A DNA stretch of 61,249 nt. Source: a virus. Of this stretch, positions 6,483-39,000 are shown one piece after another. Below the pieces are notes generated by a model. It was given only the letters and a program-made list of their open reading frames with translations, had not been told where the DNA came from and made no database searches. Location: IMG/VR virus record IMGVR_UViG_3300050821_004166, positions 1 to 61,249 of that record, one strand, 5' to 3'. Positions within the stretch are counted from its first letter, which is position 1; each line of letters starts with the position of its first letter. The position numbers were made by a program, and so were the translations under genes.

Positions 6483-6668
6483 ATGACAGGACCAACCTCT
6501 ACCACACACGTAGCCACGTGCGCCATTTGTCGTATGGACTTCTACAAGCAGGCGACCAGCTACCGCCTAATCTGCCGCAAGTGTGAATTAGCTGCGATCA
6601 AGGACAAAGCAAAAGACGATAGGGTTCCTGCCGGCCCGGCTGCCGCCCTTGGAAAGCAGCCGACGTGA
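6483..6668 (+). CDS. Small zinc-ribbon protein
   Basis: 61 aa; CAIC...CRKC. Confidence 0.35.
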   Translation: MTGPTSTTHVATCAICRMDFYKQATSYRLICRKCELAAIKDKAKDDRVPAGPAAALGKQPT

Positions 6669-7801: not shown

Positions 7802-7932
7802 TGTACGAGGGGGGTTCGATGAAGAAGCAATTGCCTTGGGCCGAGCGCACAGCCAAGCCGCACCGCGACGATGCTCTGTACCGCAGGACCGTCAAACGGG
7901 TACCTCGCAAGGTTAGAAAGGAAAAACGATGA
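7801..7932 (+). CDS. 43-aa basic micro-ORF that exactly bridges the GT and SDR genes
   Basis: Not in the ORF track. MYEGGSMKKQLPWAERTAKPHRDDALYRRTVKRVPRKVRKEKR. TGATG overlap at 7799-7803 and ATGA overlap at 7929-7932. Confidence 0.4.
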   Translation: MYEGGSMKKQLPWAERTAKPHRDDALYRRTVKRVPRKVRKEKR

Positions 7933-8840: not shown

Positions 8841-9469
8841 TACGCCTGCACGAACTCGATCGACCTGCCGTCCTAAACAGGCAAGCTATGGCGCCGGCCC
8901 GCGTCTACGTCAACGACCCCACCCAGAACAATCGCATTCGCCACGCTCGAGAAGAGGTAAAGCGGATTCTCCTGATGCTGAAGAGCGATTACGTCTCGAC
9001 CGCCCACACCTTCAGGACCATCGTGGAGCTTGGCGCGAACTCCTGCGATATCTCCGGACAGTTTTCCATGGGACACCGCGTCCACGTTTGGGAGATCAGT
9101 CCGACCTGCATTGAGTACATCACCAGGAACTTCCCATGGGTGAAGGTCCACGCCGAAGACCTGGAGGACGCGCAGACGATGCCGGCAGACGTGCTAATTC
9201 TGTGCGAAGTGCTCGAACACCTGACAGATCCGGACGCACTCGTAAAAAAATGGCTTCCAGAGGCTCGCTACGCGCTTATCTCGTCCCCCTTGGAGGGAGA
9301 CCTCACCGGAGATTTGAGCGGAGGAGAGCATGTCTGGAGCTTCAAGGAGCAGGACTTCCAGAACTTCGCCAAGATCGGCGGGCATGAAGTGCAACGGCAG
9401 TTTGATTTCCAGATGGGGCAGTACCGAATCAAGATGATGTGTACCAAGCGCAAGGAGGGCAGTCCATGA
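8837..9469 (+). CDS. Class I SAM-dependent methyltransferase
   Basis: IVELGANSCD (motif I-like) and DVLILCEVLEHLTDPDALVKKW. GTGA overlap with the upstream gene. Confidence 0.6.
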   Translation: MIRLHELDRPAVLNRQAMAPARVYVNDPTQNNRIRHAREEVKRILLMLKSDYVSTAHTFRTIVELGANSCDISGQFSMGHRVHVWEISPTCIEYITRNFPWVKVHAEDLEDAQTMPADVLILCEVLEHLTDPDALVKKWLPEARYALISSPLEGDLTGDLSGGEHVWSFKEQDFQNFAKIGGHEVQRQFDFQMGQYRIKMMCTKRKEGSP

Positions 9470-14656: not shown

Positions 14657-14663
14657 GGAAGGA

Positions 14664-16968: not shown

Positions 16969-17868
16969 ATGAAAATAGATATCGCAGTCCCGACGTACCG
17001 CGGGCTTCTCAACCCCCAGGCGAAGAACGCCATGGATAGGCTTCTGGCGTATTCGAACTGCACCTGCTTCACACAGAACGCCGCGCTGGCGAGGCAGATG
17101 TTCGAAGCGATCGAGCGGGCCGGCAGGAAACCAGTCAACATCCGGCTTCCGCAACACAACCCCTTCCACAACACCGACGAGTGCCCGGTCGGCAAGCACA
17201 GCATTCACGTCATCCCCCAGGTGAACGCCTGCGTGATTCATTGGGCGCGAAACCACCTTCTTATGAACATGCGGAAGGACGCCGATAAGGTTCTGTTCTG
17301 CGATGACGATATCGTTGTGGAGCAGGACACGCTCGAGCGGCTGCTCGCGCACAAGAAGGATATCGTTGCCGGGCTCTGTACCAAGCGAATCGACCCTCCC
17401 GAGCCCGTCATGCGCCAGTGGATGGACGAGATCCAGAACTACGGAGTGATTTTGCAGTGGCAGGAGGGAAAGCTGGTCGAGGTGGACGCCTGCGGGACGG
17501 GGCTTCTCTTGATCTCGAGGAAAGTCATCGAAGACGTTGGCCGAGCCTACCACCCAAAAGAGTATGCCGACCATGGCGATGGCTTCTGGTTCGAGTTTTT
17601 GAGAGGCCCCCATGGGCAAGAGTGGGGCGAGGATTTGAGCTTCTGCTGGAAAGCTCGCCGGCTAGGCTATCAGATGTTTGTGGACACCGCGGTAACTCCC
17701 GGCCATGTAGGAGAATATCCCTACGGCGTTGCCGACTACCTGCAATACCAGGAAGCCGTCCTCGCGGCGGGCGGAATCACGGCCTACCGCAGAGGGGAAG
17801 CGCGGAAGCAGGTTGCAAATTGGGAGTTTCCGAAGCGGACAAGCGATGAATTGGTGGAGGTTCTATGA
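16969..17868 (+). CDS. Glycosyltransferase, GT-A / family-2-like
   Basis: IDIAVPTYRG, the DxD-type motif FCDDDIVV, GTGLLLISRKV, EDLSFCWKARRLG. Confidence 0.6.
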   Translation: MKIDIAVPTYRGLLNPQAKNAMDRLLAYSNCTCFTQNAALARQMFEAIERAGRKPVNIRLPQHNPFHNTDECPVGKHSIHVIPQVNACVIHWARNHLLMNMRKDADKVLFCDDDIVVEQDTLERLLAHKKDIVAGLCTKRIDPPEPVMRQWMDEIQNYGVILQWQEGKLVEVDACGTGLLLISRKVIEDVGRAYHPKEYADHGDGFWFEFLRGPHGQEWGEDLSFCWKARRLGYQMFVDTAVTPGHVGEYPYGVADYLQYQEAVLAAGGITAYRRGEARKQVANWEFPKRTSDELVEVL

Positions 17869-19709: not shown

Positions 19710-19987
19710 TTGAATCCTCCGGAGAGTGGCGCGACGAACGACTCTGGGTGTTGAAAACGCTAGAGAAGTTAGAGGACGAACAGCGCCGGGAAGTGGAATC
19801 GGCTGCCCTTATGTCGCAAGGGCAGCTAATAAAAGCGAGTAAGGATATCCAGGAAGCGCACATCAAAATCCGGGCTCTCGAGAAGGCCAGGAGGAATCTG
19901 AGCATCAAGTATTGGATCGTGACTGGCGTGCTCTCCGTTGCCACAGCTTTGTTGCTGAAGGTTTTAGAGAGGTACTTTCACCCATGA
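19706..19987 (+). CDS. Coiled-coil protein with a C-terminal TM anchor
   Basis: ATGA overlap with the upstream gene. C-terminal YWIVTGVLSVATALLLKVL. Confidence 0.45.
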   Translation: MIESSGEWRDERLWVLKTLEKLEDEQRREVESAALMSQGQLIKASKDIQEAHIKIRALEKARRNLSIKYWIVTGVLSVATALLLKVLERYFHP

Positions 19988-20673
19988 CCGTGCAAGAACT
20001 TGCCGAGGCCTGCCGGAATATCAGCGAGGACAGCATCAAGAAGCTGAAGATTGAATCCTGGATCTCGATGGAGCTAGGGCGCATCGTCAACCGCAAACAC
20101 TATTTTTGGAGGCGGGCGGCGATCGAGTTTGACACCGTAGCGCAGCAACCCACTTACGACCTCACCGCCGGCCCGAATGCCATTGCGGCAGACTTCATGC
20201 AGATGGGCAGCAACCTGTTCCAGTTCGACGGAACGAACAAGACCGGGGAATTGCAATTCGTGGATGACAACCTGGGATTGCTGAAGATGCGGAAGGGCAC
20301 CACGGTCACTACGCCGTCAGTCTTTAGTATCGAGCTAGGTTCGAACACCAAGACCCTTCGCCTAAGCCCCATCCCGGATACCGTCTATTCCTATGCCGGC
20401 GTCTACTACCGCGGGGCGGTCATCAACTGGAACAGCCCGGACGACGAAGAAATTCCCCTGGTCCCTCCGGAAATGCACTATGTCGTTTACCAGGCCATGG
20501 AGCGGCGAGTGTTCTTCTACCTGTACGGCCAAAAAGACCCCCGTGCGGCGATTGCCGTACAAGCCGAACAGCAGTGTCTTGGAGACCTCGACGCCTACAA
20601 GTCTGGTTCCACAATGCAAGCCTTGGAATGGCGATCAGGGGACCATAACGATTTCGTTCAAAGCACTCGTTGA
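19984..20673 (+). CDS. Putative head-tail adaptor / tail tubular protein A-like structural protein
   Basis: ATGA overlap at 19984. 229 aa, positioned just before the large nozzle-like protein as in the T7 gp11-gp12 order. Confidence 0.4.
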   Translation: MTVQELAEACRNISEDSIKKLKIESWISMELGRIVNRKHYFWRRAAIEFDTVAQQPTYDLTAGPNAIAADFMQMGSNLFQFDGTNKTGELQFVDDNLGLLKMRKGTTVTTPSVFSIELGSNTKTLRLSPIPDTVYSYAGVYYRGAVINWNSPDDEEIPLVPPEMHYVVYQAMERRVFFYLYGQKDPRAAIAVQAEQQCLGDLDAYKSGSTMQALEWRSGDHNDFVQSTR

Positions 20674-24622: not shown

Positions 24623-25990
24623 GTGGGTTTCAATCTTCTGCAATCGGTACTCGGCCAGGGAAACAACGCGACAGACCCGAACGCGCTGATTAAGACGATT
24701 CTCGCCGCTGCTACCCCTCCGGAACCAGACCAGCCGGAACCAGATGCCGGAACAGATCCGGGCGCTGGCGGCGACATGGGGCTTGGTGGGTTGAATCCTG
24801 GTACGCCAGGGTTTGCCGATGTTGCTTCTGCGGGTACCGATGCTGCAACTCCGAGCGCGAGCCCTATCCCCGCAATTCTTGGAACTCCAGCAAACGACCC
24901 GAGCCGAGCTCCATGGGCGCCGAGCACCCCTCCGGGGACTCCTCCGAGTCTCAACGAGGCTCTTCCCCCTGGCGTAATCAAGGAAGTGCTTGCGAATCCT
25001 GGGTTGTACAAGAATCTCAACTCCGTTTTGAACCAGACCCAATCCAAGGTTCCCAAAATGAGACCGCTGGACTACCTGATAGCCGCGGGTACTCCGATAG
25101 CGTCTGCTCTTCTTCAGATGATGACCTCGAGGAAGCGCAGCGATCGAGCTGGAAACTTTGCTGCAGGGTTGGCGAGCGGCGGGTTGCAATCACTCATCGG
25201 CATAGCCGGGCGGCCGGCGGCAGCAGCGCAGGCGCAGCGGCAAGCCGATATCGAGAACATGCTTCTCTTGCACACGTTGCGCGGAAAGCCGCAGGCGAGC
25301 ATCGACTCGGCAACCGGAAAACCGACATGGGCTTTCGAGACTGGCGAGACGATGGGGACGGCGGGCCCGGTTCCGCGGCCAGGAGCGCGAGGCACGGTCG
25401 AGACGAAAGAGGTTACTGACGAATCTGGGGACACACATCAGATCGAGCGAGATCCGACACAAAAGGATTGGCAGCCTTCGATGATGGATGAACCTACGCC
25501 GGCGACGTCCTTCAACAAACAGGGCATCGACATGCCGGCAAGCACGCTGCGTGTCCCGGTCGTCAGCAAGAAGCAGCCGAAAGAGCCTAAGACAGAGGTT
25601 GGTTGGGGCAGCACCGATCCGAACGCAGAGAAGGGCGACACCGAAGAGATGATGCTGGCGCAACCAGGGAAGAAACCGGTTCATCTTGGAATCTTCCGGC
25701 CAACGGCAGGCAGAACGGAAAGCAAGGCGGAAGCGGAAAAGCGGCAAGTGAGCCACTTAGCGGTTCTTGCTCTGCAGGATGCTCATGCGCGAGCGAAGCC
25801 TAACGCCAAACCGGAGGATATCGTCAACGATGCGACAGAGGATTTCCGCAAGAAATCTAACCAGAGCCCTGTTTTGGCTGATAGAGCTAATGCAGTCTCC
25901 TCCGCAATCCGTAACATCGGGCGCAACGTCACGGACAAGAATCAACTCGGAGAGATTTTGGAGAAGTTAACTGAGGGACAAGGGAAGTGA
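24623..25990 (+). CDS. Putative internal virion / core protein
   Basis: 455 aa; Pro/Gly-rich N-terminus followed by a charged region. GTG start 2 nt after the previous stop. Confidence 0.4.
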   Translation: MGFNLLQSVLGQGNNATDPNALIKTILAAATPPEPDQPEPDAGTDPGAGGDMGLGGLNPGTPGFADVASAGTDAATPSASPIPAILGTPANDPSRAPWAPSTPPGTPPSLNEALPPGVIKEVLANPGLYKNLNSVLNQTQSKVPKMRPLDYLIAAGTPIASALLQMMTSRKRSDRAGNFAAGLASGGLQSLIGIAGRPAAAAQAQRQADIENMLLLHTLRGKPQASIDSATGKPTWAFETGETMGTAGPVPRPGARGTVETKEVTDESGDTHQIERDPTQKDWQPSMMDEPTPATSFNKQGIDMPASTLRVPVVSKKQPKEPKTEVGWGSTDPNAEKGDTEEMMLAQPGKKPVHLGIFRPTAGRTESKAEAEKRQVSHLAVLALQDAHARAKPNAKPEDIVNDATEDFRKKSNQSPVLADRANAVSSAIRNIGRNVTDKNQLGEILEKLTEGQGK

Positions 25991-25992
25991 AA

Positions 25993-27000
25993 ATGCCCTT
26001 CTTCAGATCGGTGAAGCAGGTACGGCCCGCGCAAAAGCCGCGGGGAAGCGTATCGCAGTTCATCACCGAGAACTTCCGGCATTTCAATGCTCGAGAACTC
26101 CGGGAAGCCGCCGAGGCCTACAAGCGGCTGGTCGATTCAGGCGGCAAGATGTTTGTAACCGTTGCCGGCGCAATGTCCACCGGAGAACTCGGAATCTCTC
26201 TGGCGAAGATGATTCGAGAGGAGAAGGTTCACGCCATTTGCTGCACGGGCGCCAACCTCGAGGAAGACATTTTCAACCTGGTAGCACACTCTAAATACAA
26301 GGTAATTGCAGGCTACCGGCAGTTGGACAACGACGACGAGAAGAGCATCCATGACGCCGATATGTCGCGTGTGACCGACACGCTCATTCCGGACAAGGCG
26401 GCCATGGACACCGTTTCGAAAGCCATCTTCGATATCTGGAAGCGGGCCGACAAGGAGGGCGAACGGTCGTTCCCGCACGAATACGTCTACCAGTTGTTCC
26501 ATGAGAAGACCTTAGACTTTGACGCCGACCCAGAAGACAGTTGGGTTCTCGCCGCGCACCAGAAGAACCTGCCGCTGTTTGTTCCAGGATGGGAGGATTC
26601 GACGCTAGGGAACATGCTCGCGGGGATGCGGATAAAGGGCGAGATCACTAAGCCGATCGTGAAGGACGGCATCGATTACATGATGGCTCTGGCGAAGTGG
26701 TACGAAGCGGAAAGCGGCGGGAAGGGCGTAGGGTTCTTCCAGATCGGAGGTGGAATTTCCGGCGACTTCTCGATATGCGTGGTTCCACTGCTGAAACTGG
26801 ACTTGAAAAAGACCGTCCCGTTCTGGGCCTACTTCTGCCAGATCAGTGATTCACTTGCCAGCTATGGAGGGTATTCCGGAGCGCCACCGAACGAAAAGAT
26901 CACTTGGGCGAAGATCGACAAGAGCACGCCAACATTTATGATTCAATCGGACGCTTCGATCGTTGCACCGCTTATTTTTGCCTACGTTCTCGAGGAATGA
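25993..27000 (+). CDS. Deoxyhypusine synthase-like (DHS / homospermidine-synthase family) enzyme
   Basis: VTVAGAMSTGELG..AICCTGANLEEDIFN matches the DHS signature TTAGGVEEDLIK. C-terminal NEKITWAKI...DASIVAPLIFAYV matches EAVSWGKI...DASLVFPLLV, including the catalytic Lys. Confidence 0.85.
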   Translation: MPFFRSVKQVRPAQKPRGSVSQFITENFRHFNARELREAAEAYKRLVDSGGKMFVTVAGAMSTGELGISLAKMIREEKVHAICCTGANLEEDIFNLVAHSKYKVIAGYRQLDNDDEKSIHDADMSRVTDTLIPDKAAMDTVSKAIFDIWKRADKEGERSFPHEYVYQLFHEKTLDFDADPEDSWVLAAHQKNLPLFVPGWEDSTLGNMLAGMRIKGEITKPIVKDGIDYMMALAKWYEAESGGKGVGFFQIGGGISGDFSICVVPLLKLDLKKTVPFWAYFCQISDSLASYGGYSGAPPNEKITWAKIDKSTPTFMIQSDASIVAPLIFAYVLEE

Positions 27001-27001
27001 T

Positions 27002-30000
27002 GTGCCGCCGACCGACACCGAGACGACAGAAACTCAGACGCAAGACCCGCTAGATGAGTACCTCGCGCTAAGGGATAAGACTGCGAAAAAGAAGTCTCCG
27101 AAGGAAGACCCAATCGCAGCCTACTTAGCTGCGCGGGAAGCAGACACTAAAGCCACCGACAAGCGATCGGCTGAAGTAGAAGCCAAAGCCGCAGCAACGC
27201 CGGCGGCGGTTCCCGTTGTTTCCCAGAAGATGGAGGAGTCTCCTGCCGGCAAGGGATTCGCAGCAGCAGAGACCGCAGGACAGAAGATATTCGGTGAGCA
27301 GCCGACCCCGGCAACGGTTGCAGCTCGAGGACCGTCATCTCTATTCCAGACGACTCCTCCTGCTCCCCCGCCTCTCCCTCCAGAAACAGTAACCGAGCCG
27401 GTCAAGAGCATGGAGCAGATCGGGCGGGAGTCTCCGTTTGGAAAAGGGACGGCGCCGGCAGAGCTTCCGAAAGATGTTGCCGACCTGAAAGCCTCGATCG
27501 AGGATTCCTCGACCAAGATCAAAGGCACGCAGAACAGGTATCCGAGCGGCATTCCGCAGGAAATCTACCCCTGGTACAAGGACGAGGTTGCCAATCACAA
27601 CCAGATGGTGGCGAGGTTTAACGACGCCATCAAGAAGCTGCCGCCAAGCCAGCGAGCCGAACAGAAGCAAACCCCTCTAAGCACCGCGCCGTTAAGTCTT
27701 TCGCAGCAAGCCGATCGGGTTGGTAAGCCGATGGTCCCCTTGACCGGTCCGCAGAAGCCGATAGACCTGACGAAATACCCGCGGAACATCTTCACAAACG
27801 ACTTGGCTATTCCCGAACAGACTCCCGAGCAGGTGAAAGCTCAGAACGCAGCCGAGGACGCGCAGCGAGCGCAAGACGATGCGTTGTCTCGAGGGAGGCC
27901 GGTATCCAGGACAGGCGTTCGCGGACTGCCGGTAACAAAGAAAGAGCTTGATGACGAGAAAGCGGGGATGGATGAGATCACGCGGGCACTCACGACGGGT
28001 TCGCGCAAGCTGCCGATTCCAGCGTTCACCGGTTTTCAGAAAGGGACAGGTTTGCCGACCGGCGCTAGGGTGTCCAGTGTTGGCGAACTCGAGGACCTGA
28101 CCGACGAATATCTCAGCCGTCCGGAGATCCCGAAGACTCGAGCTCAAGCGATGGCCGCGGGCATAACCTCGGACGCGGTGAAAACGCTGAATGATATGTT
28201 CCTGTCCCCTGTGGGCATCGTGGCGACGGGGACCGGGCTAGTGGCGGCGAACGCGCTGGCGAAAGCTGGACAAGCAGGAAAGGAAGCTCTCGAGCTAGGC
28301 GCCGAGTACCAGGCGATGAAGCGGGCCGGCGCGACCGCTGCGGAGCTTCTGGTACAGGAGGGAAAAATCCATCAGGCCATGCTGTCAGTGGCTAAAGCGC
28401 AAGGCGTGCTAAAGACCGCTGCAAGAGCCGGGCAAGTCGGTGGCGCGGCATTCGGCGCACAGGGCGCGAACGGGGTAATCGATGGAATCAAGGAGCAAGA
28501 CACTTCGAAGATTCTCGGCGGGTTAGGGCAGATCATACTTGCCGGCGCCGGCGAGGCTGCACTTCACCGGGCGGGCGGGCTCGAGTCTGCGGTCGGTGGA
28601 TCCGTCGAAGCGGAAGCGCACCGGCGATACCAAGAATCGTATAAACCTCCAGGGGACGACGACGACGACGAGCCACCGGGCGGGGGACCTCCTCCGGACG
28701 TACACGCGAAGCTGCTCGAGGACGAGCTGCACCGGGCGAAGGCCGAACATTCGGCCAAAATCCTGGAAGATGCGGCTGCAGAGACCAGAAAAGCGGCTGG
28801 AATCGACACAGAGCCACCAGGAGAGCCGGAAAAACCTGCAAAGCTCAAGGTGCCAGTACGCGCCAAAAAGCCCGCCCTGCCTGCCCCTGTTGAGCCAGTT
28901 GGCACAAAAGAAGAGCCGGAATCCTCAAGTGAGGGAGAAAAACAGGAAAAAGCGGTTATTCACACGTTCCCAGGCGAAGAAGGAACTCAGTACGAAGTAG
29001 CGAAGGTCGATGGAGGGTTTTCGGTTTCTCTGCGTGACACGGAAGCCGGCGAGGTATTTCCGTCGCACCGCATTTACAAGACTGAAGAACAAGCGGTAGC
29101 TGCAGCAAAGGGCTTCGGAGAAAAATCGACGGGCGAAGAGGCTAAAAGAAAAGCCGCTGAACCTGAAGCGAAGGAACCAGAACTTTCCGGCGAAGATGCC
29201 GTCACGGCCAAAATCTATCAGGATGCGATCGACCACGACAACGAACTCCTCGCAAACGAAAAGCTAACTTGGGAGAAGCGCGAGAGGATTGTCGAGCATC
29301 GAGACAACTATCAAAAGGACTTGGACAAGATTCAAGGGAGGCGGGTTGAGGATGTCGGACCTCCAGAGTCGAAGGGAGAGCGCCGAGCGATCGAACCGGA
29401 AGCGGAAGGGAGGTTAGAGGAAGCCAAGAGAAAGCGTAAAGCGAATCAAATTGAATTCGAGAAGAAGGCCGGGCAACCAGAGGAAGAAGCCGCGCCGATA
29501 AAGCCAGGCGACAAGATCAAGATGCGCGGTGGCATGAGGCGCCGAAGCATCATGTCAGGCCTGCCGTTAACGGACGAGCCTAGACACCAGCCTGAAGCCA
29601 CAGAGGCGAGCGCACAGCCGACCCCACCGCCGAGCGACCGCTGGACCGCCGACCGCGGTGCGATGCCGGGAGAACCCGAGCTATTCCTGGACGTTCCGGA
29701 GGACGGCGACACCGAGAAGGCCAAGGCTGCGATCATTCAGCGCGATCGGAAAGCGGGCCGTGCCACATGGGAACTCGTTCACATGGAGGGCGGCAAGCCA
29801 AAGAGCGGAGGGATGTTCAGCACGCCGCAAGAAGCCGCAGCTCGCGCCGAGAAACTGTACTCGCCACCAGAAAAGGAAGAACAGCCAGAGCACGTCCACA
29901 AAGAAGGCGACCGCGTAACGTGGACGGGCCCAAAGGGCGAGAAACTCAGTGGACAGATTCGGTCGATCGAACCACATCAGAAAACTGGACCGGATGACCT

Positions 30001-33000
30001 GCGGAAGCCGTTAGCGTCGATCACCGTCGATCAGCAAGCAGTGATGCGGATTCCTGGACGCAAGGGCGGCGTGCCGATCGGGCGCGTCGAGATGGTCCCT
30101 CTCGAGAAACTCAGTCCTGAAGGCGCACCGGAGAAGGCCGAGGCTGCTACCGAATCTGAAAAGAAGCCGGTCGTTCCGTTCTCAAAGCCTCGCCAGGAGG
30201 ACGAAAGAGAACGAGCAAGAGGAATCATTGAGGACTTCGTTGCTAAGTGGGATAGAGAATTCAAAGAGTGGCAAGAGAGCGGTGGACGTGGAGAACCTCC
30301 TCCAAAACCTTTCCAACTAGAGCATCCTCCGGAAGATATTGGCGTTTTCCAGTACATCAAGACGTTGCCAAAACACGTGCAGGAGTATGCCCGCAAGTTT
30401 TACAAAGCCTACAGAGATGAGGGAGTGGCGGCTGGACAGGAGGTTGACCCGAGAGACTATGGGATATCTGGCGAAGAAGCGGAGGAACTCGACGGCATAC
30501 TAAAGCAGCTCACCAAGCCAGGGAAAGCCGCGCCAGAGGAAGAGCCACCGGAGACAGAACCGGAACCAGAGAAGGCTGCCGAACCTGAAAAAAAAGCGGT
30601 CGTTCCGTTCTCGAAGCCAGCAGAAGCGGAGGCGCCGGCTAAGTTTCAAGAAGGCGACTTAGTACGGCTGACTGACGAACCGCACAAAGCTGGAACACTC
30701 ACACGTTTGAGTTTGAGCAAGACTACGGCGGTAGTCAAACTCGAAAACGGAAACACCGTCTATGTTCATCCAGACAGAATCGAACTGCGTGGGAAGCCAG
30801 CGGAGAAACAGAGGTACGTGGTTTCGAAGGCTGGAATGAAGCCGGGCATGTGGAAGATCATAGATACCACAGACGGCACTACAGTCCGTTCAGGGCTCGA
30901 GAGCAAGGCCGGCGCGGAAGCGATTGCTGCCGGCATGAAGTCTGAGGATCAACATATCTCAGGAGCAACGCCGTCAGGGGCAATCACTCCTCGCGTTCCA
31001 CTATCAACGGTAAAGCCGCAAAACAGACCGCATATGGTTGTCCGTGAGGTACGCGACCGCGACGACAAATTGCTTGGATACGAGTATTTCCCATACGACG
31101 GAACGCCAGAGGACGCGCTTGCGAAAGCAGAGTTAGTCACCACGCAGATGTGGGAGAAGTACCCGGACGCCTCCAACATGGGCAGCCGTATTCTCGCAAC
31201 AGGTAAAGACGGCAAACCGCTTTACGTTATGTCTCCCAATTTGCAACACGTCGCAGAGATGGGGACGCCGACAGCGAACTACATCCAGACTGGTGAAGGT
31301 GAACCGCCGGCTGAAATGAAGGCCAGTTACGAGGCAGCAAAGAAAGCAGGCGATGAAGCCGCCGGTAAGGCTCTTTGGTGGAGAAAGCCTCTTCCGAAGC
31401 TAGACGCAGACACCGAATACAAACTCCTGAAATTGATACACCCGAAGGAGGGACAGGTCGGAGCTGCCGAGCTAAGGAGAAGGTACAGAATTAACTACGG
31501 AGAGACGATAGATCAGGGCATTGTTGCTCAGTTCCTTAAAGAGCAAGAAGGATTGACACAAACTGGCGCAGGTGCCAAACTCCCGACCAAGAGCTTTGCT
31601 CCGCAGGTAATCGCTGACTCAAGCGGAAAATGGAGCGGGAACGCAGTCAGCTTTCCTACGGAACAGGAAGCCCAGGATTACGTCAACGACCTTAAAAGCC
31701 GTTGGATGGCCGTCCGTGACACTCGCGTAGTTGAGCAGGACGTTCCGGCTACTCATTCCTTTGCGAATGGCAAGCTGGAAATAGTCAAACCGGAGGAAGC
31801 CGATGCCGCCACCGCCGATCAAGCCGCCGACCGAGAAGGATCTGGACGAGATAGTGGTACAGCCGAGCCTGCTCGAGTCGGTCAAGAGCCATTGGAAAGA
31901 GAATCTTCCGAAGCTATACAAGGCGTACCAGAAGAGCGGGAAGCTGCAGGAGAAGGCGAAGAGGGCGGTGCAGGAGGCGAAGTATCTGGCCGCGAGCCTG
32001 GTGGCGCAGGGACAGGAATGGTCCGAGGCGTGGGTGACAGCCTCGAGGGAAAAGATGTACCTGGAACCAGAGGAAAGCCTGGACGACCAGGAATCAGCCG
32101 AGTAAACCCGTCAGACGGTCCGCAAGGCAATTTCTACCACATCACGGAATCCGACCAGCTAGGCCAGGCCGGCCTAAAGCAGAAGTTCAAAGACAACGTA
32201 ACAGCGATCAAGCTGCTGCAAAAGCTCGAAGCCGAGAACCGCCTCGCCACCACTGCGGAGCAAGCCGTTCTTGTGAAGTACGTCGGATGGGGCGGGTTAT
32301 CGGCTGTCTTCAAACCATGGGAAGACCGGCAATGGACGAAAGAATCCGATGAGCTTAGGGACCTGCTTCCTAGCGCCGAGTGGGAGGCAGCCAGCGGCAG
32401 CACGCAGTTTGCCCATTACACCTCGCTCGAAGTGATTCAAGGGATGTGGAGCGCACTCGAGCGCATGGGGTTCACTGGCGGGCGCGTTCTCGAGGATGCT
32501 GCCGGCGTGGGGCACTTCATGGGTGGCGCCCCTCTGGATGTTGCAGCGAAATCGAAGTGGGCGGCGGTCGAGATCGACCCTCTCTCAGCACGTATCACAC
32601 AGCAGCTCTACCAGCCGGTCAAGGTCTTCAACAGCCCCTTTGAGAAGGTGGCGTTCCCGAATAACTTCTTTGACGTGAACATCACGAACGTACCATTCTC
32701 CACGACCTCGCCGGCAGACCCCAAGTACGACAAGTATGGCTTGAACCTGCACAACTATTTCATCGTCCGCGGACTCGACCTGCTACGGCCGGGCGGGATT
32801 ATGGCCGTTATCACTTCCCGCGGGACGATGGATTCAGGCGGCAAGCACCGTGAACTGATGGCCGACCGCGCCGACCTCCTGGATGCCGTGCGGCTGCCCA
32901 AGACAGCGTTCAAAGGGAACGCCAATACCGAAGTGGTTGCGGACGTCCTGATATTCCGGAAGCGGGCGCCGGGAGACCCCAAGGGCGGCGAGGCCTTCCA

Positions 33001-36000
33001 GGACTCCATCCGAATGAAAGTCGAGAAGGACGGAAGCACGCACGTTGTTCCCGAGCGTGCAGATCCCTCCGACTTCAAGTTGAATGAATTCTTCCTGAAG
33101 CATCCCGAGAAGATTCTCGGCCAGCAAGGCATGACCGGGACGATGCGCGGGCCAGATCAATACTCCGTCGAACCTAACACCGCCACGACACTGAAGGAGC
33201 AAATCAGCAAGAACCTCACTCCTCCGCAAAACTCCTATCAGAAGGCCTCGGCATCGCAATCTCTCAGGATCGAAGCCGTCCTGTCCGCAGAGCGCCAGGC
33301 CGAAATCAAAGCCAAACCGGATGCTCTACACATCGAGGGCGACAAGCTCTACCAGAACACGGCAGAGAATCTGCTGACCATAACCTCGATCGGAGAAATT
33401 CTTGTAACTCCTCGTTCAGAGTGGGTGTACGCGCTGAAGCCTCTCGACGTCAGCCCGCCAGTGTTTCGCAAGATCAAGAGCGTGCTTGGCGTGCGGGATG
33501 CTGTGCGGGATGTGATGCTGGCGGAAGCTGCCGACAAACCCAAAGTAGAAGTTGACGCGCTTCGCAAGCAGCTCAACAAGACCTATGACAAGCACGTTGC
33601 GACCTACGGGCCCACTGGCGACGTTTCGAACACGAAGCAGCTCCTCATGGATCCGGACTTCCCGCTGCTGATATCTCTCGAGTCTTACGACCCGAAGACG
33701 AACACCTACGTAAAATCTGCTGACATTTTCACGAAGCCGACTGTGCGTCCGGAGATGACCGTGCGTCCGGAGAATCCTCGAGACGCCATGCTGGTTTCGA
33801 TGAACGAGAAGAATGGCATCGATATCCCGTTCATGGCGAAATCGATCGGGCAGACCGAGGATTACGTCATCAACGACCTGGTGGGTAAGGACCTCATCTA
33901 CAAAAACCCTGAAGGCGGTTGGGAGGACAGCGCGAGTTATCTGTCTGGACAGGTACGGTGGAAGCTAAAGGCAGCGCAGACCGCCGCGGAACTCGACCCA
34001 GACATGCAGCGCAACGTCGAGGCGCTAAAAGCGGTTCAGCCTCAAGACAAAACTTTGGCTAATCCTCCAGCAGTGAAGTTGGGCACGCCTTGGATGCCCG
34101 TGGGAGACATCGAGCAATTCATCAGAGAAACGCTGGATTTGGGAAGGTCTGTATCGGTATCGCACCCCAAAGGAGTGCCGCTTTGGACCGTTAGGCATCC
34201 GAACAAGGACACTTCCGTTATGAATGGCGCCAATTACGGAATCCAGGATGAATCCGGAACCCCCATTTTGTGGGGAACGGACCTTGTTGAACATGCGCTA
34301 AATCAGAAGACTCCTAGCGTTTACACCGGCAAAGGAGAGCAACGAGTGTTCAGTCTTGACCTGACCGAGAGGGCGAAGGACAAGATAAGCGATCTTCAGG
34401 ACAAGTTCAAAAAATGGATCTGGAAGGACGAGGAAAGAAGCTCACGCCTGCTCGATTACTACAACGAGAACATCAACAACATGGCGCAGCGGACCTACGA
34501 TGGTTCGCACCTGACGATTCCGAGCATGGCGCTAGGGATGACTATGCGGGCCCATGGGAAAAATGCTGTGTGGCGCATCCAGCAATCCGCTAACACGTTG
34601 CTGGCGCATGAGGTAGGCAGCGGCAAGACCATGATTCTTATAGCGTCAGCTCTAGAGGCGAAGCGTCTCGGAAAGTGGAAGAAGCCGGCATTGTTTGTTC
34701 ACAACGCCACGCTCGAGCAATACCGGATGCTGATTCCGCAGGCATTTCCGACCGCCAAGATTCTAGTAGCCAGGCCGGAAGACTTTGACAAAGAAAACCG
34801 CCGGCGCCTTCTTGCGCGAATAGCGACTGGCGATTGGGATACGGTCGTCATAGCGCACTCCCAGATACCGAAGCTGCCAGTGTCGGAAGCCGGCCTGCGT
34901 AAATTCATGGGAGACGAGATCGAGATTCTCAAAGGGTATCTGCGAAAGATACAAATGGAGGAGGCTTCAGCTTACCATGACTCCGGCGGGCGAGGAGGGA
35001 AACGGCAGAAGAGCCAAACTGTAAAACAGTTGGAAGCGACGATCGACAAAGCCGAGGCCCGCATGGAAAAGAAGATCCATGACTACAACGCTGACCCAAC
35101 GGTGTCGTTCGAAGAAACGGGCATAGACGCGATTCTGGTGGACGAGGCTGACGAGTTTAAGAATCTGATGTACCACACCAAAATGACCAGGGTGAAAGGC
35201 CTCGGCAATACCGAGGGCTCTAGCCGGGCGTTCGACCTGTACGCCAAGATCCGCGTCGTTCAGGCGATGAACAACGGCGGCGGCGTGGTATTTGCCACTG
35301 GAACGCCGGTTAGCAACACCATGGCGGAAATTTACAACCTGCAGCGGTATCTCGCTCAAGGCGACCTTGAAGCAATGGGGATTGACCACTTCGACGCTTG
35401 GGCAGCGCAATTCGGAGAGACGAAAACCGATTGGGAGACTTCTCCTAGCGATCCGACGAAAATTCAGGCAGTTACCAGGTTTGCCCGCATCCAGAACGCG
35501 CAGGAACTCTATAACCACACCGCGCCGTTTATGGATGTGGTGTTCTCGAAGGACATTCCGGGAATCAAGCTGCCCAAACACAACCAGCAGAAGATAGTGG
35601 TTCCGAGCTATAAGGAACTCGAGGACTACAACCATGAAATCATGGACCGGGCCGAGCATGTCAAAACCGGCCAGGTAGACCCCAAAGACGACAACATGCT
35701 GAAGATCACCAGCAACGGGAGTGCTGCGGCGATCGATATGCGATTCGTTAAGCCGGGCAGCGCAGTGAATCCCGCGTCCAAGCTCTACCATGTGGCGCTA
35801 GATGTTTACAAGAATTGGAAAGACTCGGCAGCCAACAAAGGTGTGCAGCTAATCTGCCTTGATTTGGGAGTGCCCGACACTAGGAGCGTGTCGGCGGGAG
35901 AACTGAAGTTTGGAGCGTATAAGTGGTTGCGCGAGCACCTTATCTCTATGGGTATTCCGGGAGATGAGATCACCTGGATACAGAAGTACAACAAGCCTGA

Positions 36001-39000
36001 AGCCAAGCAGCAGATGATTCGAGACACCAATTCCGGCAAGATCAGGGTGCTTATCGGTTCCACCGAAAAAATGGGAGTCGGGTTGAACGTCCAGGAACGA
36101 CTCATCGGCGGGCATCACGTTGACATGAAATGGCGCCCGCGGGACGCCATTCAGCGCGAAGGGCGATGGGTGCGTCAAGGTAACAGCAATTCCGAGGTGT
36201 TCACGAAGTATTGGACGGCGGAAAAGAGCATCGATTCCTACAAGTATTCGACCCTGGCCGCAAAAATTTCGTTCATCAATGACTTCCTGCAAGGCAAGAT
36301 CACCGCGTCCGATGTGGAAGATATCAGCGGAGAGGCGGTAACGTTCGCAATCATCAGCGCGGCGACCACCGGCAAGACGGAAATCTTCGAATTGGCGAAG
36401 ACCCAGGCAGAGATTCGCAAGCTCGAGCGGGCTCGTTTTGCTGCCGAGACGGAGCTTTTAGGAATCAAACAGCAGTTGGTGCACGGAAAAGCCCGTCTGA
36501 AAGCTACCCAGGAAGAGATAGAGCAAGCCAAGACCGAAGTGGAAGCCGTCAAGAAAGTCTACGATCCGGAAAACTTCCAGATCACGCTAAACGGGAAGCT
36601 CTACACCGACAAAGAAGAAGCTAAGAAGGCTTTGCAAAAAACAGTCTTAACGCTAAAAGACAGACAGACCATGGGGACACAGATCATTGGTTCCTACCTG
36701 GGAGTGCCGATCACTTTCGATGGACATGGGGCAGAGTTAGGAAAAGACGGAAAGCGCAGTTGGTACGGGTACAACGTTAAAACTCCGCGTCGGTCTGTGG
36801 CAATCGAACACACCACTACCGGAACGTTATTCGATGACCCTATAGCCAGTGTTATTCACGGAGTCGTGAGAGCGCCTGAGAACGACCTCGAGAAAGACAT
36901 TGCGGAAAAAGCCACGCTCAAGCAAGACATTCCCAAACTTGAGGAACTGTTAAACAAAACAGACTTTCCTCCAGAGAAGGCCAAAAAGCTCGAGGAATTG
37001 CAAGTGAAGGAGAGAGGACTCCTGAAGGCGCTAGGCTTGCTCGATGACGACACCCAAGCGGCGGGCGCGATTGCCAGCGGCAAAACCGATGTAACCGTCA
37101 CCGGAGCAGAAGGAGACAAGGAGGAAGACGACGAGGAGGGAGCGGTAGGCGCACCAGAAGGCGAGCCAGAACCACCAGACAAACCAGAGGTTGGCGCCGG
37201 CAATAAGCTGTTCACCAAGGAAGCCAAAGAAGCCGCAGAAAAGGACCTCAGTAAGAAGAGTCGGGAAATGCGTGCCGGCGTGGATCCCACCATGATTAAG
37301 GACCTGGTGGTAATCGGTGGCTTCTATCTCGAGGCTGGCATCCGAGACTTCGCTGGTTGGGCCGACAAGATGCGGGCGCACTTCCGCAAGACCAGAGACC
37401 CCCAGAAGTTTGAACCGCACCTGCAGCCAATCTACGAGCAGGCGATCAAGGCCATCAACAAGCAGAAGCCGGGATTCGCGGCCAACATCCGTCTTTCGAA
37501 CCTCCGGACCTCGGACCAGGTAAAGGAACTGATTCGAGAGACCGCACGCTCCGCTGCCGGCCGAATCGAGGGGCAACGCCGCGGCGAGGTGCCGTTCGCG
37601 CAAACCAAGGCCATGGCTCGAGAGCTAATCCGCGAAGGGCACATGACCGAGAAGGACCTCATCGACATGAAGAAGGGGACGGCGCTAAACGATGCCGAGC
37701 TAAAGGCTGCCCGTTCCATCCTGGTGTCGGTGAGCGAGGACCGCGCCAAAGCTCTGGATGAATTCCGGAAGGACGACAGCAAGGAGAACCTGCTCCGGGT
37801 TATGGAAGTGGTTGAACGTCAGCGGGCCGTCCAGGCTGCCGTCAGTGGCGCCACCGCGGAAGCTGGCCGAGCTCTGAACAGCATGAAGATAGCCGCCGAG
37901 GCGCTGAAGTCTCGATCGGCACGCGATAAGGCGCTGGACGAGCTAGGCGGGGACATTACCGAGGAGATGATTCGCAGGCTCGCGCAGATCCCGCCAGATG
38001 ACTTCATCGCCATGAACAAGTTTGTCCGGGACCACACCAAGTTTACGACCATTGAGAAGCTGAATTCCTACTGGATAGCGAACATCCTCTCCGGTTGGCA
38101 GACTCACGCTCGAGTCGCGTTCTCTAACATCGTGTGGGCGACCACGCAGCTAGGCATCCGTCCCCTCCGCGGGTTGATTGACGCGCCGGTATCGCGCCTG
38201 ATGGGTACCGAGCGCAAATACTATGCCGGGGAAACCCTGCCGGCCATGGTTGGATGGTTTGAGGGGATTCCTGAAGGACTGCGGAAAGCCATCTTTATCA
38301 TGCAGCACGGCTACAACCTTGACGACACCTCGGGCGAGATCGTTACCGACGTCAAGGCACCGCGGTATTACGAATTCCCTGGCGGGCTGAAGAACCCGTT
38401 CAACTATCCGGGCCGGGCGCTAATGGCCGCGCACAACCTTTTCCGCGTGACGAGTCTCGAGAGCGAACTGGCTGCGATTGCAGCTCGAAAGGCAATCCGG
38501 AGCGGCGGCGTCAGTCCGACATTGGGCCAAAGCCGTTACCAAAAGCAATATGCCCGCGAGCGAGCGAATCCGGAAGTGGAAGACGTGGAAGCAGCACAGA
38601 AGTTTGCGCGGTACACCGCGTTCCTGGATAAGCCGGATAAGTTCTCTCAGTTGATGATTCGCATACGGGAATGGCGAGTGCCCGAGAACTACGCTGCGAT
38701 CGGAGGAGTGAAGCCGCTGCGGTTTGTGGTGCCGTTCATCAATCTGCCTTGGAACGTCTTGAAGGCAGGCGTGGAGGTAACACCTGCAGGCGCACTCAAG
38801 TTCTTGTCGAAAGATGCCCGCAACCAGCCAGGCAAGGCAGCCGACATTATTTCGAAGGCGCTATTCGGTGCTGCCGTGATGGGTGCCGCGGCCATCCTGG
38901 CTATGAACGGGAAGCTAACCGGGCCTGCTCCAAAAGACCCAGGCAAGAGGGAGGAATTCTACCGGCTTGGGAAAAAGCCCTATGCCTTCCGAGTGGGCGA

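What the first reader, a model, noticed from the sequence alone, without database searches (positions are those of the whole stretch)
25993..27000. Phage-encoded deoxyhypusine-synthase-family enzyme inside the ejected-core-protein block
The 335-aa protein aligns by eye with eukaryotic and archaeal DHS across its hallmark segments. CTGANLEEDIFN matches TTAGGVEEDLIK. ITWAKI...DASIVAPLIFAYV matches VSWGKI...DASLVFPLLV, including the catalytic Lys that forms the enzyme-butylimine intermediate. It lies between internal virion protein genes and ends 2 nt before the start of the giant polyvalent protein gene (TGA then GTG). Possible roles:
- aminobutylation (hypusine-like modification) of a Lys on a phage or host protein;
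- homospermidine or polyamine synthesis to neutralise packaged DNA;
- manipulation of the host translation factor.

Polyamine enzymes are known in giant algal viruses. A DHS homologue in a tailed-phage structural operon appears unusual.
Basis: partly seen in the sequence, partly recalled or inferred. Interest (0 to 1): 0.8.

Follow-up and report, generated by a model that had tools for sequence, protein, structure and literature searches.

The report
Phage-encoded SpeY-type polyamine synthase gene
A complete 61-kb tailed-phage genome carries an intact enzyme of the deoxyhypusine-synthase superfamily, most likely a bacterial-type (SpeY-like) homospermidine-pathway polyamine synthase rather than a protein-modifying hypusine enzyme; this enzyme type is absent from deposited phage genomes but recurs in several uncultured phage lineages.

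Summary
ORF 25993-27000 (+) encodes a 335-aa protein of the deoxyhypusine synthase (DHS) superfamily: Pfam DS E=3.6e-41, and an AlphaFold model matches DHS structures at TM 0.7-0.78. The catalytic Lys (K307), W305, E301 and the NAD motifs are conserved.

It is probably not a true DHS. His288 is replaced by Asp258, and the spermidine-anchoring Asp243 and Asp316 by Asn207 and Tyr294. It misses every NCBIfam DHS and SpeY cut-off.

It is about 60% identical to a large cellular clade found in at least 598 species, rich in Bacteroidota. That clade is tied to agmatine-based homospermidine synthesis in three ways:
- Flavobacteriaceae place an arginine decarboxylase directly upstream.
- SpeD-like::DHS fusion proteins exist.
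- Some large phages pair it with a SpeD homologue.

Published SpeY enzymes couple two agmatines into bis-guanidino-homospermidine.

The gene is translationally coupled into the late virion operon, just upstream of a 4262-aa DarB-like giant virion protein. A second phage lineage repeats this arrangement. Virion packaging is not shown.

No homologue exists in 50,697 deposited phage genomes or in BFVD. IMG/VR holds 50 loci.

Verdict: a new phage member of a known enzyme kind, of moderate interest.

The parts
25993..27000 (+). Gene for a 335-aa DHS-superfamily (SpeY-like) enzyme
   Evidence: Pfam DS E=3.6e-41. AF2 pLDDT 86, and the top 50 PDB fold matches are all DHS. About 60% identical to a large cellular 'DHS family protein' clade.
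25982..25987 (+). Shine-Dalgarno-like GGGAAG, 5 nt before the ATG; it overlaps the end of the upstream ORF (stop at 25988-25990)
   Evidence: Sequence read. It implies translational coupling with the upstream gene.
25993..26037 (+). Phage-specific N-terminal extension (aa 1-15, MPFFRSVKQVRPAQK), predicted disordered
   Evidence: Cellular homologues have 12-18 residues before the HFN motif; the window protein has 29, and phage groups A, B and E have 25-51. pLDDT is below 50 for residues 1-15.
26245..26268 (+). TGANLEED motif (aa 85-92), the NAD/substrate-site loop; E90, E91 and D92 correspond to human E136, E137 and D138
   Evidence: Alignment. Invariant in 166 family sequences. The TGAN form is shared with bacterial SpeY/CdmS, not with eukaryotic DHS (TAGG).
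26611..26613 (+). Asn207 at the position of human Asp243 (spermidine anchor)
   Evidence: CdmS has Phe and CsSpeY has Met here. Asn in 164 of 166 family sequences.
26746..26766 (+). GGGISGD (aa 252-258): the dinucleotide-binding GGG, then Gly257-Asp258 in place of human Lys287-His288
   Evidence: Asp258 is invariant in the family; SpeY and CdmS have Lys-Asn here.
26872..26874 (+). Tyr294 at the position of human Asp316 (spermidine anchor)
   Evidence: SpeY and CdmS have Leu here. Tyr in 163 of 166 family sequences. It lies in the low-confidence loop 289-296 of the model.
26893..26913 (+). EKITWAK (aa 301-307): Glu301, Trp305 and the catalytic Lys307 correspond to human Glu323, Trp327 and Lys329
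   Evidence: Lys is present in 165 of 166 family sequences.
24623..25990 (+). Upstream 455-aa ORF of unknown function, Gly/Pro/Ala-rich at its N-terminus, in the slot held by virion structural proteins in related podophages
   Evidence: No Pfam, PHROG or phage tblastn hit. One homologue only. The analogy to PEp14 and JC1 gene order is inference.
27002..39790 (+). 4262-aa DarB-like polyvalent virion protein (Eco57I-type methylase, SNF2 helicase, C-terminal internal-virion-protein segment); its start abuts the DHS stop
   Evidence: Pfam. phrog_10089 at 1397 bits and phrog_6651 at aa 3953-4093. 33-34% identical over about 1600 aa to the giant proteins of PEp14, LASTA, Itty13, Ralstonia and Bcep22-like phages. 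The JC1 homologue was detected in virions by MS.

Best explanation
The gene encodes a catalytically competent NAD-dependent aminoalkyl transferase. It belongs to the bacterial SpeY branch of the DHS superfamily and acts as a phage auxiliary metabolic enzyme for polyamine synthesis.

Inferred mechanism:
1. Bound NAD oxidises a 4-carbon amine donor, most likely agmatine made by the host arginine decarboxylase.
2. The (guanidino)butyl moiety is carried as an imine on Lys307.
3. It is passed to the primary amine of a second molecule and re-reduced. The product is N1,N9-bis(guanidino)homospermidine (G44G).
4. Host agmatinase can trim G44G to homospermidine.

The gene is translationally coupled inside the late virion operon, so the polycation would be made when DNA is packaged. 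Its likely benefit is charge neutralisation and condensation of the genome, or support of late translation and replication.

Shown: family membership, an intact catalytic and NAD apparatus, loss of the DHS-specific spermidine anchors, late-operon position, and recurrence in phages. Inferred: the substrate (agmatine), the product, and the physiological role.
For: Enzyme integrity:
- K307, W305, E301, E90/E91/D92, D202, GGG252-254 and D320 are conserved and invariant across 166 family sequences.
- The model is confident (pLDDT 86) with the DHS fold.
- GC content and codon usage are typical of the genome.

SpeY-like rather than DHS:
- It has the TGAN motif.
- Asp243 and Asp316 are lost, as in CdmS and SpeY. 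Published work names exactly these two positions as the CdmS/DHS difference.
- An acidic residue sits at the N173 position, as in CdmS.
- The family is a 100%-bootstrap clade lying beside CdmS/CsSpeY and away from eukaryotic DHS.

Links of the family to agmatine and polyamine metabolism:
- In 7 Flavobacteriaceae loci a 465-aa decarboxylase lies directly upstream on the same strand.
- That decarboxylase matches biosynthetic arginine decarboxylases in two stretches that skip the ~100-aa insert. This is the 'ancestral AR-fold ADC + SpeY' cluster described for the flavobacterium Winogradskyella algicola, whose SpeY makes G44G.
- Three representative clusters are fusions of a SpeD/AdoMetDC-like pyruvoyl domain with this DHS family. 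The literature reports SpeD-derived ADCs clustered with speY in Planctomycetota and DPANN, both of which are represented in this family.

In phages:
- Seven IMG/VR loci of large phages carry a SpeD homologue 0-4 kb from the DHS-family gene.
- A marine group has an NMN-adenylyltransferase-like gene 2 kb away.

Background: polyamines are packaged in phage virions and are needed for phage replication.
Against: - The protein and its cellular relatives score only 96-137 bits against the NCBIfam SpeY and homospermidine equivalogs, whose cut-offs are 450-500.
- The pocket residues (Asn207, Tyr294, Asp258) differ from the two SpeY sequences available for comparison (Phe/Met, Leu, Asn), so substrate specificity could differ.
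- I could not obtain the W. algicola SpeY sequence, so I could not prove it belongs to this clade.
- Most cellular members are stand-alone genes with no conserved neighbour.
- The window phage encodes no recognisable ADC, SpeD or agmatinase. The pathway would therefore depend on the unknown host.
- The position next to virion proteins, and the N-terminal extension, are not explained by a purely metabolic role.
Confidence: 0.6

Rival explanations
1. Protein-modifying enzyme. The phage protein transfers an aminobutyl or guanidinobutyl group onto a lysine of a phage virion protein (for example the DarB-like giant or the 455-aa neighbour) or of host EF-P. This would be a hypusine-like modification.
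For: - The catalytic Lys-imine chemistry is that of DHS.
- The gene abuts the giant virion protein in the window.
- In 10 of 11 group-B phage loci with downstream sequence, a 1000-1400-aa ORF starts within about 100 nt of the DHS stop; the L034 member hits DarB-like phrog_10089.
- In group E a giant ORF lies 2.3-3 kb downstream.
- The giant protein's N-terminal 1500 aa are Lys/Glu/Pro-rich.
Against: - No eIF5A- or EF-P-like acceptor loop occurs in any window protein.
- Phage copies keep about 60% identity and all invariant residues with cellular enzymes that are linked to ADC and SpeD.
- In other phages the gene sits elsewhere: between portal and capsid genes, after adaptor plus HNH, or in metabolic gene clusters with SpeD or NMNAT.
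- The group-B large protein and the window giant share no detectable homology with each other.
- Tested SpeY enzymes act on small molecules.
Confidence: 0.12
2. Packaged and ejected enzyme. The protein is incorporated into the capsid through its phage-specific N-terminal extension and delivered with the DNA and the DarB-like protein, so that it acts at the start of infection.
For: - It occupies the slot immediately upstream of the giant protein. In PEp14 and JC1 that slot holds virion-associated proteins, confirmed by MS in JC1.
- Disordered N-terminal extensions of +12 to +38 aa occur in three phage groups but not in cellular homologues.
- The gene is translationally coupled to both neighbours.
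Against: - There is no direct evidence.
- The extensions are not similar between groups, and marine group C has none.
- The gene's position is not conserved across phage lineages.
- A tetrameric NAD enzyme needing millimolar substrate is an odd ejected cargo (inference).
Confidence: 0.12
3. Host-manipulation or counter-defence role. The enzyme drains or converts host agmatine, putrescine or spermidine, or makes an unusual polyamine, to interfere with host polyamine-dependent responses rather than to supply the phage.
For: - Phages are known to encode polyamine-inactivating as well as polyamine-synthesising enzymes.
- It lies next to an anti-restriction-type protein.
- Its pocket residues are unlike those of characterised SpeY.
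Against: - No specific evidence supports it.
- Late-operon placement argues against an early takeover function (inference).
- Pairing with SpeD and ADC in relatives points to synthesis.
Confidence: 0.08
4. Bona fide deoxyhypusine synthase, orthologous to archaeal or eukaryotic DHS and acting on an IF5A-type factor.
For: The Pfam DS hit, the fold match to DHS-eIF5A complex structures, and the conserved Lys. Close homologues occur in DPANN archaea, one of them next to an aEF-1beta gene.
Against: - TIGR00321 scores 100.8 bits against a 304-bit cut-off, and all DHS equivalogs are missed.
- His288 becomes Asp, Lys287 becomes Gly, and Asp243 and Asp316 are lost.
- It falls in a separate clade with 100% bootstrap.
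- A bacteriophage host has EF-P, not IF5A (established knowledge).
Confidence: 0.03

Closest known systems
Bacterial SpeY / CdmS (N1,N9-bis(guanidino)-5-aza-nonane, 'diagmatine', synthase; DHS homologue in homospermidine biosynthesis; PMC10981699, PMC13625781)
   Same: - Same superfamily and fold, with the catalytic Lys, Trp and Glu.
- The TGAN motif.
- Loss of the two Asp residues that anchor spermidine in DHS.
- Cellular relatives sit next to arginine decarboxylase or are fused to SpeD-like domains, like published speY clusters.
   Different: - About 30% or lower similarity to the CdmS and CsSpeY sequences.
- Below the NF002699 and NF001980 cut-offs.
- Pocket residues are Asn, Tyr and Asp instead of Phe/Met, Leu and Asn.
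- Encoded by a phage, alone, with no ADC or agmatinase partner, and carrying an N-terminal extension.
Eukaryotic and archaeal deoxyhypusine synthase (EC 2.5.1.46; PDB 6XXJ, 8A0E, 7CMC, 8PUT)
   Same: Fold (TM 0.67-0.78), NAD-binding motifs, and a Lys329-equivalent imine chemistry.
   Different: His288, Lys287, Asp243 and Asp316 are replaced. Sequence identity is 16-20%. No IF5A substrate is available in bacteria. It forms a separate clade.
Virus-encoded homospermidine synthase (HSS) of Ralstonia phage phiRSL1, Achromobacter phage Motura, PBCV-1 and Imitervirales (PMC9992855)
   Same: A virus-encoded route to homospermidine-type polyamines; the concept of a polyamine auxiliary metabolic gene.
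   Different: HSS belongs to the unrelated carboxyspermidine-dehydrogenase-like family and uses putrescine. The present enzyme belongs to the DHS/SpeY family, which that survey did not find in any virus.
Phage SpeD/AdoMetDC homologues, including neofunctionalised pyruvoyl ADC and ODC (PMC9992855, PMC10407285)
   Same: The commonest phage polyamine genes. Here SpeD homologues lie beside the DHS-family gene in seven large-phage loci and are fused to it in three protein clusters.
   Different: A different enzyme and reaction. The window phage has no SpeD homologue.
Bcep22-, PEp14- and LASTA-type ~60-kb podophages with a DarB-like giant virion protein
   Same: Genome size of about 61 kb. The virion module ends in a >4000-aa DarB-like protein preceded by virion-associated proteins.
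   Different: None of these cultured phages encodes a DHS-family protein. The window phage's capsid and adaptor are SU10-type, and there is no nucleotide similarity.

Membership tests
DHS superfamily (Pfam PF01916, DS) | Profile match above the curated gathering score over the whole domain | tested here: met
   141.8 bits against a 27-bit cut-off; residues 30-331 match profile positions 10-287 of 288.
DHS superfamily (Pfam PF01916, DS) | DHS Rossmann-type fold | tested here: met
   AF2 pLDDT 86, pTM 0.86. The top 50 Foldseek PDB hits are all DHS, probability 1.0, TM 0.67-0.78.
DHS superfamily (Pfam PF01916, DS) | Catalytic lysine that forms the enzyme-imine intermediate (human Lys329), with flanking Trp327 and Glu323 | tested here: met
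   K307, W305 and E301 align in HMMER and MAFFT alignments.
DHS superfamily (Pfam PF01916, DS) | NAD-binding motifs (GGG282-284, Asp238, Glu137/Asp138, Asp342) | tested here: met
   G252-254, D202, E91/D92 and D320 are conserved and invariant in 166 sequences. Actual NAD binding was not tested.
Bona fide deoxyhypusine synthase (EC 2.5.1.46) | Score above the equivalog cut-offs (TIGR00321, NF002006, NF002630, NF002294, NF003052) | tested here: not met
   72-101 bits against cut-offs of 304-434.
Bona fide deoxyhypusine synthase (EC 2.5.1.46) | Catalytic base His288, preceded by Lys287 | tested here: not met
   Gly257-Asp258 instead; invariant in the family.
Bona fide deoxyhypusine synthase (EC 2.5.1.46) | Asp243 and Asp316 anchoring the aminopropyl end of spermidine | tested here: not met
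   Asn207 and Tyr294.
Bona fide deoxyhypusine synthase (EC 2.5.1.46) | Transfer of aminobutyl to a specific Lys of an IF5A-type protein | not testable with these tools
   Only an indirect check was possible: no eIF5A- or EF-P-like loop motif in window proteins.
SpeY / CdmS (G44G synthase, homospermidine biosynthesis protein) | Score above the NCBIfam equivalog cut-offs NF002699 (500) and NF001980 (450) | tested here: not met
   95.7 and 131 bits. Nine cellular and phage relatives also score only 70-137 bits.
SpeY / CdmS (G44G synthase, homospermidine biosynthesis protein) | Non-acidic replacements at the DHS Asp243 and Asp316 positions, plus the bacterial TGAN motif | tested here: met
   Asn207, Tyr294 and T85-G-A-N88. 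The residues differ from the Phe/Leu of CdmS and the Met/Leu of CsSpeY.
SpeY / CdmS (G44G synthase, homospermidine biosynthesis protein) | Genomic association with an agmatine-producing decarboxylase and/or agmatinase | tested here: inconclusive
   Not present in the window phage. Present in cellular and viral relatives of the same clade: ADC upstream in 7 Flavobacteriaceae loci, SpeD fusions, and SpeD neighbours in 7 phage loci.
SpeY / CdmS (G44G synthase, homospermidine biosynthesis protein) | Couples two agmatine molecules into G44G | not testable with these tools
   Needs expression in E. coli BL21 speB and LC-MS, as in PMC13625781.
Bacterial/viral homospermidine synthase HSS (carboxyspermidine dehydrogenase-like) | Homology to the HSS / saccharopine-dehydrogenase-like family | tested here: not met
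   The only significant Pfam hit is DS. The PDB hits below E=0.01 are all DHS-family proteins.
Virion internal / ejected proteins | Detected in virions, or homologous to a known internal virion protein | tested here: not met
   No PHROG hit and no phage homologue. Only positional analogy supports it. Presence in virions is not testable here.

The most novel reading that the evidence does not exclude
The DHS-family enzyme is a virion-associated partner of the DarB-like giant protein. Its phage-specific N-terminal extension targets it to the capsid. It either installs cationic (guanidino/amino)butyl-lysines on the giant or core proteins, or is ejected with them. This would be the first hypusine-like protein modification system in a bacteriophage.
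Probability: 0.1. Interest if true: 0.85.

Novelty: new member of a known kind. Interest (0 to 1): 0.5.

Why it matters
A systematic survey of virus-encoded polyamine metabolism (PNAS 2023) reported neither DHS nor SpeY homologues in any virus. This window, plus 50 IMG/VR loci from at least four or five phage lineages, shows that SpeY-type enzymes are a recurrent phage gene. Curated collections miss it. Some of these phages pair it with SpeD, which would give a possible arginine-to-G44G module.

This has three consequences:
- It extends the agmatine-dependent homospermidine pathway, defined only in 2024-2026, to the virosphere.
- It provides compact, highly conserved enzymes for testing the substrate range of an uncharacterised SpeY subclade (Asn/Tyr/Asp pocket) that is present in at least 598 bacterial species.
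- The late-operon placement next to a giant anti-restriction protein gives a concrete, testable link between polyamine supply and genome packaging or delivery.

Tried and rejected
- Nucleotide and protein searches of the INPHARED phage collection with the gene and its 20-kb surroundings found nothing. There is no cultured relative to borrow annotation from.
- PHROGs has no family for the protein.
- Cellular gene context at three long contigs was uninformative.
- I tried to confirm that the characterised Winogradskyella algicola SpeY belongs to this clade. The paper has no held supplement or accession. A database search with a Flavobacterium orthologue returned only Flavobacterium proteins at 92% identity or more. 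The link therefore rests on the matching ADC-SpeY operon.
- I tested whether the ~1100-aa protein after the gene in group-B phages is homologous to the window's giant protein. No HMM hit was found. The two match only different parts of phrog_10089.
- I looked for a shared N-terminal targeting motif (PGHxxGGxP) in other proteins of group-A phages. There was one weak extra match, which I judged to be chance.
- The conserved 163-aa partner upstream in group A has no PDB relative and is not a pyruvoyl ADC.
- The upstream 455-aa ORF has no Pfam, PHROG or phage hit and only one homologue, so I did not model its structure.
- The promoter and terminator scan around the gene found nothing above shuffled expectation.
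- A look-up of the window's own 337-aa gene call found no exact record.
- I considered a pseudo-enzyme or decoy and rejected it, because every catalytic and NAD residue is conserved.
Full report
**1. The observation**

The window is a complete phage genome. Its first 97 nt recur at the 3' end, nearly all plausible genes are on the + strand, and there are no tRNAs. An independent ENA assembly of 61,180 bp has the same gene order around the finding.

ORF 25993-27000 encodes 335 aa.
- The ATG at 25993 is preceded by GGGAAG at a 5-nt spacing and follows the upstream ORF's TGA by 2 nt.
- The stop TGA (26998-27000) is followed after 1 nt by the GTG of a 4262-codon ORF, itself preceded by GAGGA.
- The gene is therefore translationally coupled on both sides.
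- No promoter or terminator signal exceeds shuffled expectation.
- GC (0.55), GC3 (0.71) and codon usage are typical of the genome.

**2. Family assignment**

- Pfam DS (PF01916) matches at E=3.6e-41 over the whole domain.
- The best PDB sequence hits are archaeal and human DHS.
- An AlphaFold2 model built from a 32-sequence alignment has pLDDT 86 and pTM 0.86.
- Its top 50 Foldseek PDB matches are all DHS, with TM 0.67-0.78.

**3. It is not a canonical DHS**

I took the human, Arabidopsis, Thermus CdmS and Cylindrospermum SpeY sequences from the supplement of PMC10981699. I aligned them with 166 members of the window protein's family.

Conserved positions (window = human):
- K307 = K329, the catalytic Lys
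- W305 = W327
- E301 = E323
- E90/E91/D92 = E136/E137/D138
- D202 = D238
- GGG252-254 = GGG282-284
- D320 = D342

Replaced positions, each invariant or nearly so within the family:

| Human DHS | Window | SpeY / CdmS |
|---|---|---|
| His288 | Asp258 | Asn |
| Lys287 | Gly257 | Lys |
| Asp243 | Asn207 | Phe (CdmS), Met (CsSpeY) |
| Asp316 | Tyr294 | Leu |

- The HMMER profile alignment to human and archaeal DHS agrees on these positions.
- The caldomycin paper singles out exactly Asp243 and Asp316 as the differences between the agmatine-coupling CdmS and human DHS.
- The window protein, and nine cellular and phage relatives, are far below every NCBIfam equivalog cut-off, whether DHS or SpeY.
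- In NJ trees the family is a 100%-bootstrap clade lying beside CdmS/CsSpeY and away from eukaryotic DHS.

**4. What the family does in cells**

The window protein is 56-64% identical to thousands of proteins of about 322 aa annotated only as 'deoxyhypusine synthase family protein'.
- There are 245 clusters at E<=1e-30 in a 50%-identity representative library.
- At least 598 GTDB species carry it. They are rich in Bacteroidota (Flavobacterium, Chitinophaga, Sphingobacterium), Acidobacteriota and Verrucomicrobiota, and also include Planctomycetota, CPR and DPANN.
- Most copies are stand-alone genes.

Three independent links point to agmatine-based polyamine synthesis.

(a) In seven Flavobacteriaceae loci a 465-aa PLP decarboxylase lies directly upstream on the same strand.
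- It matches biosynthetic arginine decarboxylases in two stretches that skip the ~100-aa insert.
- This is the 'ancestral AR-fold ADC' that Li et al. (2026) describe clustered with speY in the flavobacterium Winogradskyella algicola.
- Expression of that SpeY in E. coli gave G44G, as did every other SpeY they tested.

(b) Three representative clusters (P0243, P0244, P0257) fuse an N-terminal SpeD/AdoMetDC-like pyruvoyl domain to this DHS family. The ESH processing site is present and the domain matches PDB 1TLU at E=1e-8. SpeD-derived arginine decarboxylases clustered with speY are reported in Planctomycetota and DPANN archaea.

(c) Flavobacterium orthologues are at least 92% identical across species, which fits a core metabolic enzyme.

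I could not retrieve the W. algicola sequence itself. Identifying this clade with the characterised SpeY is therefore a strong inference, not a demonstration.

**5. Distribution in phages**

- tblastn against 50,697 deposited phage genomes finds nothing.
- Foldseek against BFVD finds no viral structure at E<=1e-3.
- Li et al. (2023) state they could detect neither SpeY nor DHS homologues in viruses.
- A pattern scan of IMG/VR nevertheless returns 50 loci.

Gene-content clustering and annotation separate these loci into groups.

| Group | Phage type | Position of the DHS gene |
|---|---|---|
| A | SU10-like, ~60 kb, related to the window phage | Between portal and capsid genes, beside a glycosyltransferase, a radical-SAM/SPASM protein and a methyltransferase |
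| Closest relative (P0003, 64% identical) | SU10-like | After the SU10-type adaptor and an HNH endonuclease |
| B | Another podophage lineage, ~12 loci; family-A DNA polymerase, primase | Last-but-one gene of the structural block (see below) |
| E | — | A 1155-aa and a >=2885-aa ORF lie 2.3-3 kb downstream |
| C | Nine marine loci | No N-terminal extension; an NMN-adenylyltransferase-like gene 2 kb away |
| D | Seven loci of large phages | A SpeD homologue 0-4 kb from the DHS gene |

- In group B, 10 of the 11 loci with downstream sequence have a 1000-1400-aa ORF starting within about 100 nt of the DHS stop. The L034 member matches DarB-like phrog_10089.
- In group D, the SpeD homologue is 55% identical to Microcystis phage MaAM05 SpeD. 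Together with the DHS gene it forms a plausible arginine-to-G44G module.
- Bootstrap support is good for each phage group (A 98, C 92, E 91). There is none for a single phage clade (12%), so the number of acquisitions is unresolved.

**6. Context in the window**

The phage has the following features, in order:
- an SU10-type capsid (14628-15992) and adaptor (19912-20670)
- a glycosyltransferase, NAD-epimerase and methyltransferase cassette between portal and capsid
- small unknown ORFs after a 653-aa tail protein
- the 455-aa ORF
- the DHS-family gene
- a 4262-aa protein

The 4262-aa protein carries Eco57I-type methylase and SNF2 helicase domains. It matches phrog_10089 (DarB-like antirestriction) at 1397 bits and has a C-terminal 'internal virion protein' segment. 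Its relatives are the giant proteins of ~60-kb podophages: PEp14, Pavtok, LASTA, Itty13, Ralstonia phages and Bcep22-like phages.

In JC1 and PEp14 the genes just upstream of the giant protein encode virion-associated proteins, and the giant itself is found in virions by MS. The 455-aa neighbour, however, is essentially an ORFan, and nothing shows that the enzyme is packaged.

Phage copies in groups A, B and E and in the window carry N-terminal extensions. They are group-specific and, in the window protein's model, disordered; cellular homologues lack them. This is unexplained. It could be a capsid-targeting peptide, or a regulatory 'ball-and-chain' of the kind known in human DHS (my own knowledge).

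**7. Mechanism and role**

The best-supported reading (about 0.6) is a SpeY-type polyamine synthase. NAD oxidises agmatine (or a related 4-carbon amine). The (guanidino)butyl group is held as an imine on Lys307 and transferred to a second amine, giving G44G. Host agmatinases can convert G44G to homospermidine; any SpeB tested does so.

Late co-expression with virion genes fits a need for polycations during DNA packaging. Polyamines are packaged by some phages, neutralise nucleic-acid charge, and support phage replication and translation.

The window phage has no recognisable ADC, SpeD or agmatinase, so it would rely on host agmatine.

Rivals:
- hypusine-like modification of a virion protein or EF-P (0.12)
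- a packaged and ejected enzyme (0.12; compatible with either chemistry)
- host polyamine manipulation or counter-defence (0.08)
- true DHS (0.03)

Weighing against protein modification:
- there are no acceptor-loop motifs
- the gene's position varies among phages
- it is paired with SpeD, NMNAT and ADC in relatives
- it retains about 60% identity to cellular enzymes

The recurrent placement directly upstream of large DarB-like proteins in two or three lineages keeps that reading alive.

**8. Novelty and score**

The enzyme family and the concept of phage polyamine genes are both known. New here are:
- the first documentation of DHS/SpeY-family genes in phages, where a dedicated survey found none
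- their recurrence in several lineages, in some cases paired with SpeD
- the unusual late-operon location next to a giant anti-restriction protein

I rate it a new member of a known kind, interest 0.5. A 10% tail covers the much more surprising virion-associated, protein-modifying reading.

Noticed in passing
window 1-97 and 61153-61249: The first 97 nt are repeated exactly at the end of the window, so the contig is a circularly closed, complete genome of about 61.15 kb. The same phage was assembled independently in ENA sample ERZ27253773 (61,180 bp).
   Followed up: partly
window 6665-9469: Between the portal candidate (3330-5582) and the capsid gene lies a cassette of a Glyco_trans_1_2 glycosyltransferase (6665-7801), an NAD-dependent epimerase/dehydratase (7929-8840) and a SAM methyltransferase (8837-9469). 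A further GT2-like glycosyltransferase sits at 16969-17868 among the tail genes. This suggests virion or DNA sugar modification. Related phages have a radical-SAM/SPASM enzyme, and the DHS gene itself, in the same hot-spot.
   Followed up: partly
window 27002-39790: The 4262-aa giant protein has a Lys/Glu/Pro-rich, low-complexity N-terminal stretch of about 1500 aa. This is followed by an Eco57I-like methylase (around aa 1860-1990), an SNF2 helicase (around aa 2770-3060) and an internal-virion-protein-like segment (aa 3953-4093). An alternative TTG start at 26963 would overlap the DHS gene by 38 nt.
   Followed up: partly
L006, L014, L022, L023, L025, L054, L057 (IMG/VR large-phage contigs): A 123-147-aa SpeD/AdoMetDC homologue (AESHISxHSFEE...FIDIFSCK) lies 0-4 kb from the DHS-family gene. 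This is a possible two-gene viral arginine-to-G44G module that has not been described.
   Followed up: partly
P0243, P0244, P0257 (proteins from the representative library): These are natural fusions of a SpeD-like pyruvoyl decarboxylase domain to the DHS-family domain. P0244 (756 aa) also has a central methyltransferase-like segment (LLEVGGGPT).
   Followed up: partly
L139 2381-4454 (contig of P0003, the closest homologue): An HNH endonuclease gene lies immediately upstream of the DHS-family gene, right after the SU10-type adaptor gene. This hints that the gene moves as part of a mobile cassette within structural modules.
   Followed up: no
L039 10289-11293 (marine group C phage loci): About 2 kb downstream of the DHS-family gene lies an ORF whose N-terminal third resembles the NMN adenylyltransferase of Flavobacterium phages. 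That enzyme acts in the biosynthesis of NAD, the DHS cofactor.
   Followed up: no
L001 9509-10000, L003 9516-10004, L004 15-503: A conserved protein of about 162 aa and unknown function overlaps the start of the DHS-family gene in group-A phages. It has no PDB relative.
   Followed up: partly
window 54789-55403 and 57296-58750: An RNase H-like protein (54789-55403) matches archaeal and bacterial RNase HI in PDB at E=4e-19. A DNA N6/N4 methyltransferase (57296-58750) lies in the replication and early region.
   Followed up: no
window 14628-15992: The longest ORF for the SU10-type major capsid protein starts with a hydrophobic, TM-like segment and overlaps the preceding ORF by 29 nt. The Pfam match begins at residue 66, so the true start is probably further downstream.
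   Followed up: no
window 26915-26942: A sigma-70-like site (TCGACA-16-TATGAT, 10 of 12 matches) lies inside the 3' end of the DHS gene, about 60 nt upstream of the giant ORF. The count of such sites in the region equals the shuffled expectation, so it is probably chance.
   Followed up: no
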